Below are positions 3,891 to 40,264 of a stretch of DNA of 64,000 bases, in pieces. Source of the stretch: a virus. Its lineage: Duplodnaviria > Caudoviricetes. The notes below the pieces were generated by a model that saw only the letters and a program-made list of their open reading frames with translations, had not been told where the DNA came from and searched no databases. Position 1 is the stretch's first letter; every line of letters begins with the position of its first letter. The translations under genes were made by a program, and so were the position numbers. The DNA lies in IMG/VR virus record IMGVR_UViG_3300005546_000003, positions 1 through 64,000 of that record, one strand, 5' to 3'.

Positions 3891-5999
3891 CTAATTCGGT
3901 CCTCCTGCTCCTGATTCACTGATGGTCTGGCGTGGGATGCCGTTTTCGTCCTTTTTATCAAGCATTTGTGGGGGTTCCTGACCTGAGCTTGGGCGACCCT
4001 CTTGGCCAGCGGCTTGACCTATAGCCCCTAGAGCCCCCAGCACCTGCCCTTCTGGGCTATTTGCTAGCATCATTTGCTGGGCCTGCATCTGGATTGCCAT
4101 TTGGATCTCGGCCATGATTTTCTGCCAGGCCTCCCAGCGCTCCACTACTGTGTTAGCGCCGTCGGGTGGTTTGCCGAAGTTCGGAATGTCGAAGACCTCA
4201 GCTAAGGTCCAGGGATCAATAGGGACACCAGACTTTTGGAGCTGGAGGTACAGTAGCTTCCGAGTCATTTGAGTAATCTGGTGCAAGCTATTTGGGACAA
4301 CGTGGAACACAAAGTTATTCTGGTGCCAGTTGGCTCGAAGGTGCTGGGGGCTGGAGCTTGGGAACCGCTCGTCTTCCCAAGGGAAATGAGAAGGAATCAT
4401 ACTAGCAGGCTCGAAGTCGAAGTCCTCTTCGGTCAAGCCGTCTGGGCCTAAAACTTGAACCTTCCTAGCTGCTGTGTAGTATTGGAAAACCATGCTCTTG
4501 AACATCTCTCCCACGTCGCGTAGGGAGCGTTCCATGTTGCGGCTCATGTCATAAACCAGCGGTCCTGCTAGTTCCATGAGCTTTTCGATGCTATCGCTAG
4601 CTGGGGTTTGGCGGGCTTTGGCTAGAGAGGTCAGGTCCTGAACGCCAACTAGATAATCAGCCCTATCTTCTAGGGTTTGCATTACTTCGGGAATCCAATT
4701 CGGCACATCAAACTGCGAAGGGTCGAAAACTGGTTTAACTGGATCGGTTACCCCAGCGGTTGAGTCTACTTCAATCTTAGCCCCTGCTTGCCGGGGGTCA
4801 AATCTATCTATCATTGGCTTCCCAACAACAGAGCGGTCATACTGCACGGGCGGTCGAAGCCTCACGTTAGCACTATCCACAACTGCCCTATACAAGCTAT
4901 TAACGCTATCCATGATTGGAATCGAGTCTCGAACTAGGCTGTAGCCCAAGAATTCCCAAGGCCAGTCGTCTACTCGAAATTGCACTATTGGCACCTTGCC
5001 GTGCCAAAACGGGTTAGGGCCGTCCTTTATGATATGGCTCCGAGTGCAGGTAATTAACCGGAGCCTCGGGTACATCAGCGCCTCCTCTGGCGTTGTTACG
5101 TGAATCTTTGGAGTTCCATCAGCATTCAGCGCTCCAGTTGGAGTTTGCTTACCCACGTAAGGAACAGTGTAGCTCCAGTTAGTCCCAGCGTCACCCATTA
5201 GGATATCGGCTCCCGAATGATTAACACTGGTGTCCCGGATGTAAATGTTGAATATATCTATGGTTGGATAATTATCCGTGCTAGTGCTCTGGCTGGTTGC
5301 ATAATTTAGCACCGGACTGCCCCACTTCTGTACCTTTTCCTTAGCTTTAGCGAACCAGCTCGGAGCATCTCTATCCGGACTTAGCCAATGGCTATGCAAT
5401 GGATACATTGCAACTGCTTGACCTAATGGTACTTCAGTTCTGATGATAACAGCTTGAGCGCGTTGCAGATCATTGTCTGCGCCAATACCCACCGGCAGCA
5501 CGTCTTTAGGTCCATGAGCCTTAAGCGCAACGTCTCCACGCCCTGCGAACCAAAGGTCTCTTTCCCATGCAATGGACAAATAACCTGTACCAAGTACAGT
5601 GGCATACTGGAGGGCTTCTCTAATCGAACGATCCACGAATTGGTTGTGGAACCAGGCAAGCATGAGTTTATTGAGGATTTCAACGTGTCGGTCATAGAGG
5701 GGGTTGTCGGACTTGTAGCCCCACATGGGGCGGATGTTGGAGAGGGTGCCGACTACTTCGCGCATCTGGCGCTTGATTCGGTTGATGTGGAGCTGGGAGA
5801 GCTTAGCGGGGCGGCGTTGGGTAGCACCAGCTATGGTAGCAATGGCAGTGTCGATATCTTCAAAGGCTCGGGTCGAGCGAATTAGAGCTTCGCCCTGGGA
5901 GATAGAACGAGTCACCCAGGCTAGTTTGTCTTTTTCGTCTGCGGTTATTGGGGGAGCTTTGTAGAACTCGGGAGAATTTGGGGTGAGGTTGGAGAGCAT
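3891..5999 (-). CDS. Portal protein
   Basis: 702 aa, position between terminase and scaffold; portal-like segments (REALQYATVLGTGYLSI, YSLVRDSIPIMDSVNSL, Gln-rich C-terminal barrel). Confidence 0.8.
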   Translation of the reverse strand: MLSNLTPNSPEFYKAPPITADEKDKLAWVTRSISQGEALIRSTRAFEDIDTAIATIAGATQRRPAKLSQLHINRIKRQMREVVGTLSNIRPMWGYKSDNPLYDRHVEILNKLMLAWFHNQFVDRSIREALQYATVLGTGYLSIAWERDLWFAGRGDVALKAHGPKDVLPVGIGADNDLQRAQAVIIRTEVPLGQAVAMYPLHSHWLSPDRDAPSWFAKAKEKVQKWGSPVLNYATSQSTSTDNYPTIDIFNIYIRDTSVNHSGADILMGDAGTNWSYTVPYVGKQTPTGALNADGTPKIHVTTPEEALMYPRLRLITCTRSHIIKDGPNPFWHGKVPIVQFRVDDWPWEFLGYSLVRDSIPIMDSVNSLYRAVVDSANVRLRPPVQYDRSVVGKPMIDRFDPRQAGAKIEVDSTAGVTDPVKPVFDPSQFDVPNWIPEVMQTLEDRADYLVGVQDLTSLAKARQTPASDSIEKLMELAGPLVYDMSRNMERSLRDVGEMFKSMVFQYYTAARKVQVLGPDGLTEEDFDFEPASMIPSHFPWEDERFPSSSPQHLRANWHQNNFVFHVVPNSLHQITQMTRKLLYLQLQKSGVPIDPWTLAEVFDIPNFGKPPDGANTVVERWEAWQKIMAEIQMAIQMQAQQMMLANSPEGQVLGALGAIGQAAGQEGRPSSGQEPPQMLDKKDENGIPRQTISESGAGGPN

Positions 6000-6818: not shown

Positions 6819-8969
6819 TTAGCAAAACTCCTCAAACTCTCCCCGCTCAACCCAGTAGTCCTCGGGGGCCTTCTCAGCTCCAGCAGCTATGTGCCAGCTG
6901 GGTTTCCAGACTGGGTGAATCTGGCTCTCGGCGTCAGCTTGAACTCTAGCTTGCCATGCTGGGGTTGCGCTGCGATACTGTTCAGCTCTATGAAGGTCAA
7001 ATAGGACAATTCCTAGGCTCATTAGTCTGTCGTCGTGGGCTCCTTCAGCAGCCTCTAGCCTTTCTTTCTTTTCATTTCTGATGAAATTCCCCATTTCATC
7101 AACAAACCACGGGCTGTTAACCTGTAACCACCCATCCACTAGGGCTTTGCGCAAAAAGTCAAGCATCGGCCCCCGGCTAGCTTCGGTGGTTTTCCACCCG
7201 AATAGTGGGGTTGTCTTGTTGGTCAAAACCATTCCTCTAGTGTATTGCTTTTGCTGAAGGCTGAAATTATGCCAGCCTCGCTTCCAGAGCTCGTTCTGGG
7301 TAGCTTCACCATTGGCCGCCATTTCTACCACTATTTTAGCTTGCTTAGTTTCTCCACCTCCGCTTGGGATGGTGGAGAACAATGTAGACAGCGCGAGGAC
7401 AAACGGCCAGATTTCAAAAGCTCCGCTCTGATCTGATGCAAACTCTGCGCACTGCTCGGCATCTGAGTAAGGAGTAGCCTTTCGCAGGACTTGCACCACG
7501 GTTCTGTCTTGGCCGACCCCGAAGGCAGTGTCAACTCCAACTCCATAGTCGTTGAATTTTTCTGGCATTGCATATAGAAATATCTTCCCCAGAGGGTCCA
7601 TATCACTTAATCCAGTCCACTTTAGCGGAACCAGTTGAAATCTCCCCTTAGCTCCAACCCTAGTAGCGTCGATAGTAAGCGGTTTGAATGAGGATTTTCG
7701 GTCTATCTCACGCTCGCTCGGCTGGAGGCGGAGGGGAATTTCACCCTCTGCACCAACCAATCCTAGCACAACTAGCGGGGGATTGCAAGCGTTTCGTTTT
7801 TCAGCCAGGAACTCGGCCCCGAAGATGCTCATTCGCTTGTGCTGGAAGGCCTCTAGGTCATCGGCTGGCATCTCCTGGTACCATTTGTTTAGCTCCCCGT
7901 TGGCTGCATATTCTTGCCGATTGACCTCATAGAACCACTTTTGCTCAACTGGCATCTGCCAGCCAGCTGGGAAGTATTTACTCAAAATCGGGTTAGCAGC
8001 TACATACTCCTCGGCCCTGCTGGCATGGTCTTCTACCTGATCGCTTGGCTTGTAATCACGCGGAACCTTGTGAGCCTTGAGCCAAGTTGTGTTGGGGTAT
8101 AGATCTGTCCCGACATACCACGGTAGAAATACTGGCCGCAGCCTTGACATACCTTTGGAGTAGTTAGCCTTGGCATATTCCCATTTCTTGTGCCACCAGT
8201 TGTCTCGACCGTTAGCTGTGGATTCAAGGGCAAGTAATACGAAGGGATCATCATGCATAGCTCGCAATAGTGAGGCATCGACGAGCTCTTCGGGCTGCTC
8301 AAAGTCGGCGAGCTCAGAGAGGTGAGCAACCGTAGGTGTGGTACCACGGGCGATACCAGTGGTCTGGTTGCCCCATTGAATACTAACTGCGGAGTCAAGT
8401 TCTCCATATTCTATTAGTTCTCCTGCTTTATATTTGGTGCGCTGGGGGAGCAGCCACCAAGGTTGGTTTGACCAACAGAATAGCATCATGTCGGCCATTT
8501 TGCGAGACTTATCTGGGTCGGAGCTAGCCACGATGGCGTTAACGTGGGAGTGAAATTGAACTCTATGGCCGGTTATGAGCTCAAACAAAGTGCTCATACC
8601 GAGCTGGCGGGCCTTGAGTAGCTGAAGCATCAAGGCAATGCCTAGCTCTTGCATTTCGCCCATGATGTCTAGGATGATGTTTTGGGCTATATTGGGGATA
8701 AATTTGACCTTGCGATTGCCTTTATCCCTAATGTAGGCATAATTTCTAGCCCAATAGCGAAAGTCAAGCGTACAGAGTAGCCTTTCGGTTTCTATCCACT
8801 GTAGCTCATCTTGAGCTAGCTGACGGGTTGGTTGGCCATTTTCACCTAGAAGCTCATTGAAGTGCTTGACATAGGCTTCGATTTGTGCTCCGGTGCTCTC
8901 GGCTAGGGCTCTGCCCAGCTCACGCTCGGCGAGCTTTTTGTGGTGGGAGATGACTTTGGGCGAGTACAA
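6819..8969 (-). CDS. terL: Terminase large subunit
   Basis: LKARQLGMST Walker A context, AHLSELAD Walker B, LESTANG coupling motif, C-terminal RNase H-like nuclease (GVGVDTA, HDDRLMS). Confidence 0.92.
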   Translation of the reverse strand: MYSPKVISHHKKLAERELGRALAESTGAQIEAYVKHFNELLGENGQPTRQLAQDELQWIETERLLCTLDFRYWARNYAYIRDKGNRKVKFIPNIAQNIILDIMGEMQELGIALMLQLLKARQLGMSTLFELITGHRVQFHSHVNAIVASSDPDKSRKMADMMLFCWSNQPWWLLPQRTKYKAGELIEYGELDSAVSIQWGNQTTGIARGTTPTVAHLSELADFEQPEELVDASLLRAMHDDPFVLLALESTANGRDNWWHKKWEYAKANYSKGMSRLRPVFLPWYVGTDLYPNTTWLKAHKVPRDYKPSDQVEDHASRAEEYVAANPILSKYFPAGWQMPVEQKWFYEVNRQEYAANGELNKWYQEMPADDLEAFQHKRMSIFGAEFLAEKRNACNPPLVVLGLVGAEGEIPLRLQPSEREIDRKSSFKPLTIDATRVGAKGRFQLVPLKWTGLSDMDPLGKIFLYAMPEKFNDYGVGVDTAFGVGQDRTVVQVLRKATPYSDAEQCAEFASDQSGAFEIWPFVLALSTLFSTIPSGGGETKQAKIVVEMAANGEATQNELWKRGWHNFSLQQKQYTRGMVLTNKTTPLFGWKTTEASRGPMLDFLRKALVDGWLQVNSPWFVDEMGNFIRNEKKERLEAAEGAHDDRLMSLGIVLFDLHRAEQYRSATPAWQARVQADAESQIHPVWKPSWHIAAGAEKAPEDYWVERGEFEEFC

Positions 8970-11477: not shown

Positions 11478-11799
11478 AATAGAACTGCTCCCGCGCTACA
11501 GGGTCTCTCAAATTGGCCTCATAGAGCTTGAGCAAGCCTTCCAGCCTGTCTCCAGTTGGTAAACTGCCCTCACGGGCCAACCAACCGTAAACAGACCTAC
11601 CTGAGCACCCTAACTGGCGGGCAAAAATCTCTGGACTCAGCCCTAAGCTCTCGTAAACTACCTTCACAAAATCCAAACACCAAGCTCGACGCTCTTTATT
11701 TAGATATTGAGGGTCAAAAATAGCCTTGATTTGCCTAGTTTCGGGCCAATTAGCTAGCTTGGGCAGGCTCTGGGCTGGATTTGGGGGTCTCTTGGGCAT
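11461..11799 (-). CDS. Helix-turn-helix DNA-binding protein (XRE-like)
   Basis: LGLSPEIFARQLGCSGRSVYGWLAREGSLP fits the HTH pattern. Confidence 0.6.
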   Translation of the reverse strand: MPKRPPNPAQSLPKLANWPETRQIKAIFDPQYLNKERRAWCLDFVKVVYESLGLSPEIFARQLGCSGRSVYGWLAREGSLPTGDRLEGLLKLYEANLRDPVAREQFYYDQAS

Positions 11800-12238
11800 C
11801 TTTTGGTCTAAAAATCACTATCATACTAGGAAATGGAGCTGAACTAGGAGCACCTACGAACTTTAGTCTGCCTCGAATGAACCTGATTTCCCCATATGGG
11901 AGACAAAAATCATGGAACCACTTGGTATCAGTGCGAGCCGGGAGGAGACAAACTGTTGGGGCTCCGTTTTGGCTCTCATTGTAAGCTTTTTCTACCCATT
12001 TGCCAATTTCTCTCCCATATGGGGGGTTGAGCCAAACATACGAATCCTCTGGCATCAGCCCCCAAGCCTTCTCTAGTGCCCCCTCGCTGTAGTAATTGGC
12101 AAGCTTGTGGTTCTGCTCATTTGCAGCAGCATCTAGCTCAAAGTGAAACTCCCTGTCGAGCTCATCCCAGAGCTCCTGTGGAGTCTCCCAATCATCTCGA
12201 TTGGAGCTGAACATGGCTTTTTGGGTTGCTGGGGTCAT
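11750..12238 (-). CDS. dam: Phage DNA N6-adenine methyltransferase (phage Dam family)
   Basis: FSSNRDDWETP, FELDAAA, VWLNPPYG (NPPY catalytic motif), LLPARTDTKWFH, IRGRLKF, APFPS. Confidence 0.9.
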   Translation of the reverse strand: MTPATQKAMFSSNRDDWETPQELWDELDREFHFELDAAANEQNHKLANYYSEGALEKAWGLMPEDSYVWLNPPYGREIGKWVEKAYNESQNGAPTVCLLPARTDTKWFHDFCLPYGEIRFIRGRLKFVGAPSSAPFPSMIVIFRPKDAQETPKSSPEPAQAS

Positions 12239-12249
12239 GATATAAAAGT

Positions 12250-12343
12250 TTGTCTAAGGAACCAGCAAACTGAGGCATTTTACCTATACCCCCGAAGGGG
12301 CTTCGAGTCGAACGAAGTATCTCAGTTCTTCACCATTAGACAA
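12250..12343 (-). ncRNA. Y-RNA-like element (remote copy) with minimal permuted tRNA domain
   Basis: Minus strand: TTGTCTAA-TGGTGAAG-AACTGAG-ATACTTC-[CTTCG TTCGACT CGAAG T-arm, sharing CTTC with the motif; CCCC TTCG GGGG; TAT; AGGT AAAAT GCCT]-CTCAGTT-TGCTGGTTCC-TTAGACAA; same scaffold as the elements upstream of Ro60. Confidence 0.75.
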
Positions 12344-12417
12344 GAGGTCAAGTCAGCAGAAGCTAGTAGCCCTTTGGAACGCTTTCTGCTCGTTACCGGC
12401 TGCACGACTCTATAAAT

Positions 12418-12624
12418 TTAAGCAAATCCAGCCAAAAACTTAATCAAAACCAGCACCGCGATTACAATAACAACCGCGATGGCATATTTCTGAAACGGCT
12501 CTGGCGCAAAGGTGATAATGAGCCAATAAAGCAGCGAAAGCACTATTAGAAATATTAGTACTGGGATTATCAGCGAGGTCAAGCCAGCCATGCTGGAGCC
12601 TGCTAGAAGGGTTAAGAGTAACAT
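12418..12624 (-). CDS. Small membrane protein
   Basis: 68 aa with two hydrophobic segments. Confidence 0.6.
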   Translation of the reverse strand: MLLLTLLAGSSMAGLTSLIIPVLIFLIVLSLLYWLIITFAPEPFQKYAIAVVIVIAVLVLIKFLAGFA

Positions 12625-12630
12625 TTTGGG

Positions 12631-12792
12631 TTATTTTCCTCGTTTGTGTTTATTGGCCTCAATAGCCCTTAGTTGAGCCTCGGCTTTTTCTTTGCTTTGG
12701 GGCTTTTTGCTAAAGGTCTTGTTGGAGTTCTCTTTCTTGACCTTGTAGCCCCCTGGAACTTTTACTACGGTTGCAGTTGAAGTATGATTCAT
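12631..12792 (-). CDS. Small basic protein (53 aa)
   Basis: MNHTSTATVVKVPGGYKVKKENSNKTFSKKPQSKEKAEAQLRAIEANKHKRGK; GAGGAG RBS; downstream of a strong promoter. Confidence 0.65.
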   Translation of the reverse strand: MNHTSTATVVKVPGGYKVKKENSNKTFSKKPQSKEKAEAQLRAIEANKHKRGK

Positions 12793-12828: not shown

Positions 12829-12857
12829 ACTATATCACCTTTTTTTCGCAATGTCAA
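12829..12857 (-). promoter_or_regulatory. Sigma70-like promoter
   Basis: Minus strand TTGACA-17 nt-TATAGT. Confidence 0.7.
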
Positions 12858-36426: not shown

Positions 36427-37605
36427 ATGCCTTTTTTAATTGACAGATCGAGATTGCAGCGATACTATGATTGTCCACGAGCATTTTTCTGGCAATACCT
36501 ATATGGAGGCCTTGGAGTCGCCCCAGCCCGCACTAGCATTCCCCTCGTTGTTGGAGGGGCAGTGCATAAGGGACTTGAGCGATTGCTCCTTGGAGACCCA
36601 GAGGATGTGGCGGCAAGTAGTGCTGTTGGTGAGTTTACGGATCGCTTGGGCTCAGGTCTCGCACTTGAGCCAAGAGAGAATGCTAGCCAAGTCTATGCCG
36701 AGCAAGCTAGCTTGGTGGAGGGATTAGTTAGGGTTTATGCTAGGCGGGGGTTGCCGAGGTTATTGGAGGAATATGAAGTTCTTGAGGTCGAACGAGAGGA
36801 CAACTTGGAGGTTGCACCAGGGGTCATTCTTATGGCTCGTGCTGATGGCTTGTTACGCAAGTGTAGCAATGGTCAGCTATTCGTTCTTAGCTTCAAGACT
36901 GCCAAGCATTATACTAATCAGCATTCTAGCGACGGAAGCCATGATGTTCAGGGATTATCGGAATCGGCTATTATTGAATCACGGTTAGGCCAAGAAGTAA
37001 CCGGAACCTTAATGGTTTACTTGGTGAAAGGAGACCGAAGTGAATATCCACCGGACAGCGGAACATATATCCAGTCAAGTCCTCTTGTTCACCCTTGGGT
37101 GCGCAGTAGTGCAGGGGGTTCTGTTGGGGTTGGCGATCTTGCTCATAGCTTCAAATGGCGAGACACCACTGGGGGTCATACCTTAGGCAAAGGGTGGTAT
37201 AGGGGAAACATTGAAGACTACATGCCCATATCAGAATGGATCACCTTACTGGATGAGAATAAAATCCAGCCTGAGGCGGGCGATATTCTTGAATCGCTCA
37301 TTGTCCAACCGCCACCGTACATGCGCAGACGTTCCGAGGCGCAGGATTGGCTTGAGCAAACGGCGGGGCTAGGGAATAGGATTAAGCTAGATGCTGAGGC
37401 CTTGAGCTCAGAGCTAGGATTCAGGGACAAAGGCCATGCACTTAATGTCTTGTTCCCCCAGAACCGTCGGAGCTGTGACTGGCCTAGCAAGTGCCCGTTC
37501 CAAGATATATGCTTTGGGCCAGCAGGGGAGCCGCTAGAGAGCGGATTGTATAAGGAGAGGGAGCCACATCATGAACGAGAAATCGAGCAGGCAAAACGAT
37601 CCTGA
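36427..37605 (+). CDS. PD-(D/E)xK nuclease, Cas4/RecB-like exonuclease
   Basis: SRLQRYYDCPRAFFWQY, GGAVHKGLE, ARADGLL, SFKT, CDWPSKCPFQDIC. Confidence 0.82.
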   Translation: MPFLIDRSRLQRYYDCPRAFFWQYLYGGLGVAPARTSIPLVVGGAVHKGLERLLLGDPEDVAASSAVGEFTDRLGSGLALEPRENASQVYAEQASLVEGLVRVYARRGLPRLLEEYEVLEVEREDNLEVAPGVILMARADGLLRKCSNGQLFVLSFKTAKHYTNQHSSDGSHDVQGLSESAIIESRLGQEVTGTLMVYLVKGDRSEYPPDSGTYIQSSPLVHPWVRSSAGGSVGVGDLAHSFKWRDTTGGHTLGKGWYRGNIEDYMPISEWITLLDENKIQPEAGDILESLIVQPPPYMRRRSEAQDWLEQTAGLGNRIKLDAEALSSELGFRDKGHALNVLFPQNRRSCDWPSKCPFQDICFGPAGEPLESGLYKEREPHHEREIEQAKRS

Positions 37606-40169: not shown

Positions 40170-40264
40170 TAGAGAGTAAGCAGTAGTTCAATTGGTTAGA
40201 ACGCTAGCCACTGAAGGTTTGACCTACTAGCATATCCGGTTCAAGTCCGGCTGCTTACTCTCTA
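40170..40264 (+). ncRNA. tRNA-like element (non-decoding)
   Basis: 14-bp acceptor-like stem TAGAGAGTAAGCAG/CTGCTTACTCTCTA, TA, D arm GTTC-AATTGGTTA-GAAC, CTAG/CTAG stem with a 19-nt loop, T arm CCGG-TTCAAGT-CCGG; no CCA. Confidence 0.7.

What the first reader, a model, noticed from the sequence alone, without database searches (positions are those of the whole stretch)
12250..12343. Remote Y-RNA-like copy on the opposite strand, carrying a minimal tRNA elbow
Seen: about 7 kb from the array, in the oppositely transcribed arm just upstream of the Dam gene, an element has the same scaffold (TTGTCTAA/TTAGACAA, TGGTGAAG, AACTGAG/CTCAGTT, ATACTTC). Its domain is a perfect T arm (CTTCG-TTCGACT-CGAAG), a 4-bp UUCG-capped acceptor stub and a 4-bp D-like stub. 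Inference: it is expressed in a different temporal class from the array, so Ro60 RNP composition may change during infection. It also shows the scaffold is a dispersible module rather than a tandem-duplication relic.
Basis: partly seen in the sequence, partly recalled or inferred. Interest (0 to 1): 0.75.

Follow-up and report, generated by a model that had tools for sequence, protein, structure and literature searches.

The report
Unlinked Ro60-partner RNA with T-arm
A 94-base element just upstream of this phage's Dam gene is a real fifth copy of the small-RNA family that otherwise sits beside the phage's Ro60 gene; it carries a tRNA T-arm, and it matters mainly as a rare copy encoded away from Ro60, on the opposite strand.

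Summary
Window 12250-12343 (minus strand) has the full scaffold of the Ro60-adjacent RNAs: 8-bp outer stem, UGGUGAAG, 7-bp inner stem, AUACUUC, a 10-nt 3' loop ending GUUCC. A covariance model built only from 12 such elements next to Ro60 genes of other phages scores it 47.3 bits (E 3.6e-13), third best in the window. It gave no hit in about 130 kb of unrelated phage DNA.

The T arm (CUUCG-UUCGACU-CGAAG) is the only strict T-arm motif in the 64 kb. The UUCG-capped 4-bp hairpin is real. The "4-bp D-like stub" is not supported; a single-stranded GGUA may be the D-loop remnant instead.

The same T-arm subtype lies inside Ro60-adjacent arrays in at least three other phage lineages. Of 53 model hits in 21 Ro60 phages, 50 lie within 1.8 kb of Ro60 on its strand. 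This copy (7.9 kb away, opposite strand) is one of two credible exceptions.

It is not a Rfam YrlA member. I read it as a new variant of the known Ro60/Y-RNA kind. Expression, processing, Ro60 binding and timing are untested. This scan has noted similar phage Ro60 RNA arrays before on other DNA.

The parts
12336..12343 (-). Outer stem, 5' strand (UUGUCUAA); pairs with 12250-12257
   Evidence: Sequence; RNAfold (which leaves the outermost U-A unpaired); R1 alignment
12328..12335 (-). 5' internal-loop motif UGGUGAAG, the presumed Ro60-contact motif. It resembles GNCGAAN0-1G with C->U.
   Evidence: Nearly invariant in 12 training elements from other phages. The motif is described in PMC4201824 and PMC12135203.
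12321..12327 (-). Inner stem, 5' strand (AACUGAG); pairs with 12268-12274
   Evidence: Two compensatory changes relative to Y1 (AGCUGGG/CCUAGCU), read by eye from the match and the table.
12318..12320 (-). AUA, first part of the conserved WUACUUC scaffold word
12301..12317 (-). T arm: CUUCG-UUCGACU-CGAAG. Its 5' strand is the CUUC of the scaffold word.
   Evidence: Only strict T-arm motif in the window, 0.2 expected; present in MFE and centroid
12289..12300 (-). 4-bp hairpin CCCC-UUCG-GGGG directly abutting the T stem, in the position of the closed acceptor-like stem
   Evidence: Sister elements have a hairpin in the same place (ACCC-GCAA-GGGU in L155; CUCCA-N7-UGGAG in L004).
12275..12288 (-). 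14-nt single-stranded linker UAUAGGUAAAAUGC with GG at 12283-12284; possible D-loop remnant
   Evidence: Unpaired in MFE and centroid. L155 has UCUGGUAGAA and L004 has ACUGGUCGUUA. The YrlA elbow uses two D-loop G (10.1101/312249). Suggestive only.
12268..12274 (-). Inner stem, 3' strand (CUCAGUU)
12258..12267 (-). 10-nt 3' internal loop UGCUGGUUCC (family consensus CGNUUGUUCC)
   Evidence: L004 and L005 elements beside Ro60 have CGCUGGUUCC.
12250..12257 (-). Outer stem, 3' strand (UUAGACAA); ends 11 nt before the Dam AUG
12829..12857 (-). Sigma-70-like promoter match (TTGACA-17-TATAGT with TG), the likeliest start of the transcript that contains the element
   Evidence: Consensus match only; not evidence of function.
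11750..12238 (-). Dam methyltransferase gene immediately downstream; no Shine-Dalgarno sequence visible in the 11-nt gap
   Evidence: PF05869, E 4e-28; homologues align from residue 1
19535..20258 (+). Ro60-adjacent array of four scaffold elements: Y1 19535-19601, Y2 19696-19852, Y3 19944-20054, Y4 20185-20258
   Evidence: Y2 gives a weak Rfam YrlA hit (34 bits, gathering score 69).
20286..21647 (+). Phage Ro60 (TROVE + vWA) gene, the presumed protein partner
   Evidence: PF05731, E 3.3e-10; 20 relatives at 46-55% identity

Best explanation
The element is a fifth, intact gene of this phage's Ro60-partner (Y-RNA-like) small-RNA family. Two helices of variable sequence frame a conserved asymmetric internal loop, UGGUGAAG opposite UGCUGGUUCC. 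This loop corresponds to the GNCGAA-type Ro60-binding motif of bacterial and phage Y RNAs and is the presumed Ro60 docking site.

The apical 46 nt form a reduced tRNA-like head. It has a canonical T arm whose 5' strand is the scaffold's own CUUC, a stacked UUCG-capped hairpin in place of the closed acceptor stem, and a single-stranded GGUA that may stand in for the D loop.

Most likely it is transcribed as part of the minus-strand operon that starts near 12830. It would then be cut out of that precursor, be bound by Ro60, and present its T-arm head to a tRNA-elbow-binding host or phage factor, as proposed for YrlA.

Shown: family membership by sequence and structure, the T arm, the location, and the recurrence of the subtype. 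Inferred: transcription, processing, Ro60 binding, the elbow contact and the effector.
For: 1. R1, trained on 12 elements beside Ro60 genes of other phages (stems 95.6% paired, 14 of 15 pairs with changes on both sides), scores the element 47.3 bits, E 3.6e-13. This is on a par with the array's Y1 and Y4 at 52.5 bits. R1 has no hit in about 130 kb of control phage loci.
2. All 21 Ro60-encoding phage records have R1 hits, and 50 of 53 hits lie within 1.8 kb of Ro60 on its strand. The scaffold is therefore tightly tied to Ro60.
3. UGGYGWAG resembles the GNCGAAN0-1G motif proposed for Rsr recognition (PMC4201824) and the CGAA motif shown by mutagenesis to matter for phage phiLo Ro60 binding (PMC12135203).
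4. All pairs in both stems are perfect. Relative to Y1 the inner stem has two compensatory changes within an 18/20-identical 5' scaffold (and my reading).
5. The T arm is unique in the window.
6. The same architecture (WUA, CUUCG-UUCRANU-CGRAG, hairpin, linker with GGU) occurs inside or beside Ro60 arrays in L155, L004/L005/L151 and L108. L155 has an identical MFE topology.
7. The element is co-oriented with its flanking genes and downstream of a near-consensus promoter match. Y RNAs processed from a precursor are known in M. smegmatis (PMC4201824).
Against: - There are no expression, processing or binding data. The phage is an uncultured IMG/VR record.
- No orthologue of this locus was found in a close relative, so conservation of this particular copy cannot be shown.
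- The covariation counts come from elements that my descriptor chose partly for having closing stems, so they overstate independence.
- In a 201-nt context the MFE is a different, non-significant fold.
- The motif has U where the published motif has C; C8U weakened phiLo Yrl2 binding about threefold.
- The GG-to-T-loop contact rests on GGU recurring in three lineages, which is weak.
Confidence: 0.6

Rival explanations
1. A cis-acting Ro60-binding element in the operon mRNA. The scaffold stays in the transcript. Ro60 bound 11 nt upstream of the Dam AUG would control translation, stability or processing of dam and perhaps the downstream packaging genes.
For: The outer stem ends 11 nt before the Dam start, with no Shine-Dalgarno sequence in between. 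Dam homologues align from residue 1, which supports that start. No promoter or terminator match immediately flanks the element. In at least 8 other phages the last scaffold element ends 24-45 nt before the Ro60 start codon, so placement next to a start codon is a family habit.
Against: The known family precedent is trans-acting RNAs cut from precursors (PMC4201824). The elaborate T-arm head has no obvious role in a purely cis element. Placement next to Ro60 starts is equally explained by co-transcription.
Confidence: 0.18
2. A recently displaced copy with no function of its own, that is, a duplication or recombination relic not yet decayed.
For: No orthologue in other genomes. The 5' scaffold is 18/20 identical to Y1. 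It is one of very few copies away from Ro60.
Against: All 15 stem pairs, both loop motifs, the T arm and the UUCG hairpin are intact. Its score equals that of array members. Its head differs completely from Y1 and matches a subtype kept in other phages' arrays, which this phage's array otherwise lacks. The differences from Y1 in the inner stem are compensatory.
Confidence: 0.1
3. A tRNA-fragment mimic that acts without Ro60, for example a T-arm decoy or substrate for a T-loop-binding enzyme or nuclease, with the scaffold serving only as a stable clamp.
For: Canonical T arm. T stem-loops alone are known substrates of T-loop-modifying enzymes (established knowledge). YrlA is a TruB substrate (10.1101/312249).
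Against: The conserved internal-loop motifs are kept exactly, which a mere clamp would not require, and they co-occur with Ro60 in 21 of 21 records.
Confidence: 0.08
4. A chance inverted repeat, ordinary terminator or plus-strand feature.
For: The plus strand also folds (-25.7 kcal/mol, z -2.7), as any hairpin's complement does. A 90-aa plus-strand ORF (12143-12415) overlaps the element.
Against: R1 matches only the minus strand, at E 3.6e-13. There is no U tract after the stem and the scan finds no terminator-like site at the element. The plus-strand ORF is antisense to the Dam N-terminus and to the operon.
Confidence: 0.01

Closest known systems
YrlA, the bacterial and phage tRNA-like Y RNA (Rfam RF02553; Chen et al. 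2014, PMC4201824; crystal structure preprint 10.1101/312249)
   Same: Terminal helix formed by the 5' and 3' ends. A GNCGAA-like motif on the 5' strand. An apical head built from tRNA parts in permuted order (T arm, then a closed acceptor-like hairpin). Encoded in a genome that has Ro60.
   Different: No RF02553 match even at E<=10. No D stem. The T stem is fused to the scaffold word CUUC instead of sitting in a multiloop. There are two framing helices around a large 8/10-nt internal loop plus the WUACUUC word. It lies 7.9 kb from Ro60 on the other strand, whereas the YrlA searches looked beside Ro60.
M. smegmatis YrlB and D. radiodurans Yrn1 (PMC4201824; 10.1101/312249)
   Same: Ro60-bound RNAs that carry a T stem-loop but not a full tRNA-like domain. 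They are processed from a precursor shared with other genes.
   Different: Those are encoded directly upstream of rsr.
Thermus phage phiLo Yrl1 and Yrl2 with phage Ro60 (PMC12135203)
   Same: Phage-encoded RNAs with a stem-bulge-stem layout and a (C/U)GAA motif in the bulge. Binding to a phage Ro60 was shown by gel shift and cryo-EM.
   Different: The phiLo RNAs lie upstream of Ro60 and have CGAA. No tRNA-like head is reported for them.
Animal Y RNAs
   Same: A small RNA with a terminal stem that carries the Ro60 site; several paralogues per genome; genes not linked to the Ro60 gene.
   Different: Pol III genes with a bulged-helix GGUCCGA site and no T arm. No homology was tested.
Scaffold elements inside or beside Ro60 arrays of other uncultured phages (L155:4958-5045, L004:9130-9224, L108:244-347)
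   Same: The same scaffold and the same head: WUA, CUUCG-UUCRANU-CGRAG, a hairpin, and a GG-containing linker.
   Different: Those copies lie within 1 kb of Ro60 on its strand. L155 and L004 have a 12-nt 3' loop and UAGUGAAG.

Membership tests
   47.3 bits, E 3.6e-13, full-length match 1-72 on the minus strand. The model was trained without any sequence from this genome.
   7,945 nt away, opposite strand. 50 of 53 hits in 21 phages meet this feature.
Y RNA (Ro60-bound noncoding RNA, general) | 5' and 3' ends pair into a stem; size about 80-130 nt | tested here: met
   8-bp outer stem, 94 nt
Y RNA (Ro60-bound noncoding RNA, general) | Ro60-contact motif on the 5' strand (GNCGAAN0-1G or CGAA in bacteria and phages) | tested here: inconclusive
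   GGUGAAG has U where the published motif has C. The U form is the majority in Ro60-adjacent elements of other phages.
Y RNA (Ro60-bound noncoding RNA, general) | Physically bound and stabilised by Ro60 | not testable with these tools
   Needs a pull-down or gel shift.
YrlA (Rfam RF02553) | Scores at or above the family's gathering score (69 bits) | tested here: not met
   No RF02553 match at E<=10 on 12200-12400 or on 1-30000. Only Y2 reaches 34 bits.
YrlA (Rfam RF02553) | Head with T arm, closed acceptor-like stem and D arm | tested here: not met
   The T arm and a 4-bp capped hairpin are present. There is no D stem in MFE or centroid; only GGUA in a single-stranded linker.
tRNA | Cloverleaf recognised by ARAGORN or Rfam RF00005 | tested here: not met
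   No ARAGORN gene in the window. The only RF00005 hit is at 40177-40258.

The most novel reading that the evidence does not exclude
The element is not, or not only, a free Y RNA. It would be a Ro60-responsive switch built into the operon mRNA. A Y-RNA scaffold 11 nt upstream of the Dam start would let Ro60 occupancy gate translation or processing of dam and the packaging genes that follow. That would be Ro60 acting as an mRNA regulator through a Y-RNA-like cis element, a mode not described for any Ro60. The habit of placing scaffold elements 24-45 nt before Ro60's own start codon in other phages would then point to autoregulation by the same means.
Probability: 0.15. Interest if true: 0.8.

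Novelty: new variant of a known kind. Interest (0 to 1): 0.5.

Why it matters
- Bacterial and phage Y RNAs have been sought, and found, only beside the Ro60 gene. An intact copy 8 kb away on the other strand shows that such searches miss partners, and a second phage keeps scaffold-like elements inside its tRNA array.
- The factor that binds the tRNA-like elbow of YrlA is still unknown. This 46-nt head keeps only a T arm, a stacked hairpin and a GG-containing strand, and it recurs in several phage lineages. It is therefore a natural minimal construct for asking what that factor needs.
- Other phages keep this T-arm subtype inside their arrays, while this phage's array lacks it and has it elsewhere. 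This suggests the subtypes are not interchangeable.
- If the copy is timed differently from the array, or acts in cis on the Dam/packaging operon, it would link Ro60 to the control of phage gene expression.

Tried and rejected
- Rfam at gathering and at E<=10: nothing at the element. No YrlA hit at gathering in 20 related array loci either.
- ARAGORN: no tRNA in the window.
- Close relatives of the phage: none in the GenBank phage collection. Ro60 relatives in IMG/VR reach at most 55% identity.
- Dam-based search: nine loci at 43-62% identity, none with the scaffold by motif or by model. Conservation of this site could therefore not be tested.
- Pattern searches for orthologues in IMG/VR: only the L004/L005 lineage, one possible further family element (L169, 21-28 bits) and chance matches (for example L024, inside an ORF).
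- The metagenome pattern was loose. Most of its 102 matches were unrelated repeats without stem closure. Only those with closure and a nearby Ro60 were used.
- A weak R1 hit at 36951-37010 (16.8 bits) lies antisense inside a 392-aa ORF and is treated as chance.
- Flank homology between this locus and the array: none beyond the module.
- Folding in a 201-nt context did not favour the element's own fold, but that fold was itself not significant (z -0.2).
- No protein-RNA docking tool was available, so Ro60 binding was not modelled.

Full report
**What is there.** The window is the first 64 kb of a 73.6-kb uncultured virus record with direct terminal repeats. The sequence at 12250-12343, read on the minus strand, is UUGUCUAA-UGGUGAAG-AACUGAG-AUA-CUUCG/UUCGACU/CGAAG-CCCC/UUCG/GGGG-UAUAGGUAAAAUGC-CUCAGUU-UGCUGGUUCC-UUAGACAA. 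It fills most of the 179-nt gap between a 68-aa ORF (12418-12624) and the Dam gene (11750-12238; PF05869, E 4e-28), both on the minus strand. Ro60 (TROVE plus vWA) is at 20286-21647 on the plus strand. It is preceded by four elements with the same layout: Y1 19535-19601, Y2 19696-19852, Y3 19944-20054 and Y4 20185-20258.

**Is it more than chance?** A descriptor that asks only for TRGYGWAG flanked by two closable helices finds Y1, Y3, Y4 and this element and nothing else in the window. Dinucleotide shuffles give 0.14 hits per window. In addition, the element has the word AUACUUC right after the inner stem and a 10-nt 3' loop ending GUUCC, exactly as the array members do.

For an independent test I collected Ro60 relatives (46-55% identity) on 20 IMG/VR contigs. 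Motif anchoring found about 45 elements with this scaffold there, nearly all directly upstream of Ro60. I built covariance model R1 from 12 short elements of those other phages only. In that alignment the two helices are 95.6% paired, and 14 of 15 pairs change on both sides. One caution applies: my descriptor picked elements partly for having closing stems, so these counts overstate independence.

R1 scores the element 47.3 bits (E 3.6e-13) as a full-length match on the minus strand. That is third in the window, after Y4 and Y1 at 52.5 bits and ahead of Y3 at 32.9 bits. R1 has no hit at E<=0.01 in about 130 kb of Dam-homologue phage loci used as an unplanned control.

**The head.** CUUCG-UUCGACU-CGAAG is a 5-bp stem closed by G-C with a 7-nt UUCRANN loop. 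It is the only such motif on either strand of the 64 kb, against 0.2 expected per window. The CCCC-UUCG-GGGG hairpin abuts it without a spacer, in the position of the closed acceptor-like stem of YrlA. Both appear in the MFE and the centroid.

It would use the C that closes the inner stem, it is absent from both predicted structures, and it has no counterpart in the sister elements. What does recur is GGU or GGUA in the single-stranded linker after the hairpin. This element has UAUAGGUAAAAUGC, L155 has UCUGGUAGAA and L004 has ACUGGUCGUUA. In the YrlA crystal structure the elbow is made by the T loop and two D-loop guanines (10.1101/312249). A stemless D-loop remnant is therefore a fair hypothesis, but three lineages sharing a trinucleotide is weak evidence.

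One nuance: the T stem's 5' strand is the CUUC of the scaffold word WUACUUC. The head is therefore fused to the scaffold and is not simply a truncated YrlA domain.

**Relatives of this subtype.** The same architecture lies inside or beside Ro60 arrays elsewhere.
- L004/L005/L151 (9130-9224) lies about 780 nt upstream of Ro60.
- L155 (4958-5045) lies about 200 nt upstream. Its head is nearly identical (AUACUUCGUUCGAAUCGAAG) and its MFE topology is identical.
- L108 (244-347) lies about 470 nt downstream.

Those arrays also hold short elements and, in L004/L005, full tRNA-like elements. This phage's array has the short, full tRNA-like and anticodon-like types but not the T-arm type, which sits at the Dam locus. 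This pattern suggests that the types are not redundant.

**How unusual is the location?** I ran R1 over the whole records of 21 Ro60 phages, about 1.2 Mb in total. Of the 53 hits at E<=0.01, 50 lie within 1.8 kb of Ro60 on its strand. There are three exceptions.
- This element, 7,945 nt from Ro60 on the opposite strand, at 47.3 bits.
- A 24-bit element in phage G007, 35.8 kb from Ro60 on the opposite strand. It lies inside an array of 28 tRNA genes and is followed by a second, diverged scaffold with a tRNA-like head that ARAGORN calls 'tRNA-???'.
- A 16.8-bit hit at 36951-37010, antisense inside a 392-aa ORF, which I treat as chance.

The flanks of the Dam-locus copy share nothing with the array. 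Only the module matches. The best match is an 18/20-identical 5' scaffold with Y1, and by my reading the two inner-stem differences are compensated on the other strand.

**Expression.** The element has the same orientation as its neighbours. The best sigma-70-like promoter match in 8.5-21 kb (TTGACA-17-TATAGT with TG, 11 of 12) is at 12857-12829. It lies upstream of two small ORFs, the element and dam. No terminator-like site or promoter match immediately flanks the element. Downstream on the same strand come terminase (6819-8969), portal (3891-5999) and major head protein (840-1970).

The outer stem ends 11 nt before the Dam AUG, with no Shine-Dalgarno sequence between them. Dam homologues align from residue 1, which supports that start. 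In other phages the last array element ends 24-45 nt before the Ro60 start.

**Comparison with what is known.** Chen et al. 2014 (PMC4201824) defined bacterial and phage YrlA RNAs next to Ro60. They have a GNCGAAN0-1G motif and a tRNA-like domain. The paper notes that M. smegmatis YrlB has a possible T arm, and that YrlA and YrlB there are processed from one precursor. For Thermus phage phiLo, two upstream Y-like RNAs with a CGAA motif in a bulge bind the phage Ro60, and single substitutions in that motif weaken binding three- to fourfold (PMC12135203).

The present motif, UGGUGAAG, has U where those have C. The U form is the majority in the 12 training elements. Rfam's YrlA model does not match this element at E<=10. 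It reaches gathering in none of 20 related array loci, and only Y2 gets 34 bits.

The element therefore works like a Y RNA and belongs to a scaffold family tied to Ro60, but it is not a YrlA member by Rfam's test. It also fails the 'adjacent to Ro60' criterion used to find Y RNAs in bacteria and phages. I rate it a new variant of a known kind.

Earlier AI notes of this scan describe similar phage Ro60 arrays with shared handles and tRNA-like cargo on other genomes, some inside tRNA clusters. These notes are leads, not support.

**Verdict.** Family membership by sequence and structure is close to certain. My best reading, at about 0.6, is a trans-acting Ro60 partner RNA cut from the operon transcript that shows a minimal T-arm head. 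A cis-acting Ro60-binding element controlling dam and the operon behind it is the main rival (about 0.18). An undecayed relic (about 0.1) and a Ro60-independent T-arm mimic (about 0.08) follow. Nothing about expression, binding or timing has been tested.

Noticed in passing
L064:2393-2625 (G007:C1:27892-28124, minus strand): An 88.6-kb Ro60 phage has two scaffold-like elements inside a 28-tRNA gene array, 35.8 kb from its Ro60 gene and on the other strand. One scores 24 bits with R1. The second has a tRNA-like head that ARAGORN calls 'tRNA-???'. Their 5' motif is diverged (UGCCGUUAG / GUGCCGUAG).
   Followed up: partly
L014-L021 and others; distances listed: In at least 8 phages the last scaffold element ends only 24-45 nt before the Ro60 start codon (30 nt in this window, Y4 to the GTG at 20286). 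This could mean that Ro60 regulates its own translation, or it could just reflect co-transcription.
   Followed up: no
L074:2076-2158, L083:19-99: Some scaffold elements beside Ro60 carry a 5-bp hairpin with a 7-nt loop of anticodon-loop form (CU-GCU-AA, CU-CUU-AA) right after WUACUUCA. This is a different head type from the T-arm type.
   Followed up: no
window 36951-37010 (minus): A weak partial R1 match (16.8 bits, E 0.006) containing GGUUACUUC, antisense inside a 392-aa plus-strand ORF (36427-37605). Probably chance.
   Followed up: partly
window 12355-12392 (minus): A 9-bp stem with one bulge and a 17-nt loop (AGCAGAAAGC...GCUUCUGCU) sits between the upstream ORF's stop and the element, with no U tract after it. 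Its role is unknown; it could be a processing signal.
   Followed up: no
window 40177-40258 (plus): The only Rfam tRNA hit in the window (39.9 bits) has a 19-nt stretch where the model has a 9-nt anticodon region, and ARAGORN does not call it.
   Followed up: no
window 12418-12792 (minus): Two small ORFs (68 and 53 aa, no Pfam match for the 68-aa one) lie between the strong promoter match and the element. By eye the 68-aa product looks strongly hydrophobic.
   Followed up: no
L067-L166, many loci from Ga0123341/Ga0123342: The loose metagenome pattern picked up a repeated unrelated sequence (TTGTGTAG-AGTTTCT-TTACTTCATTCAAATTCAAC...) on dozens of contigs from one sample pair. It looks like a dispersed repeat or an abundant element. 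It is not a scaffold member, because the stems do not close.
   Followed up: no
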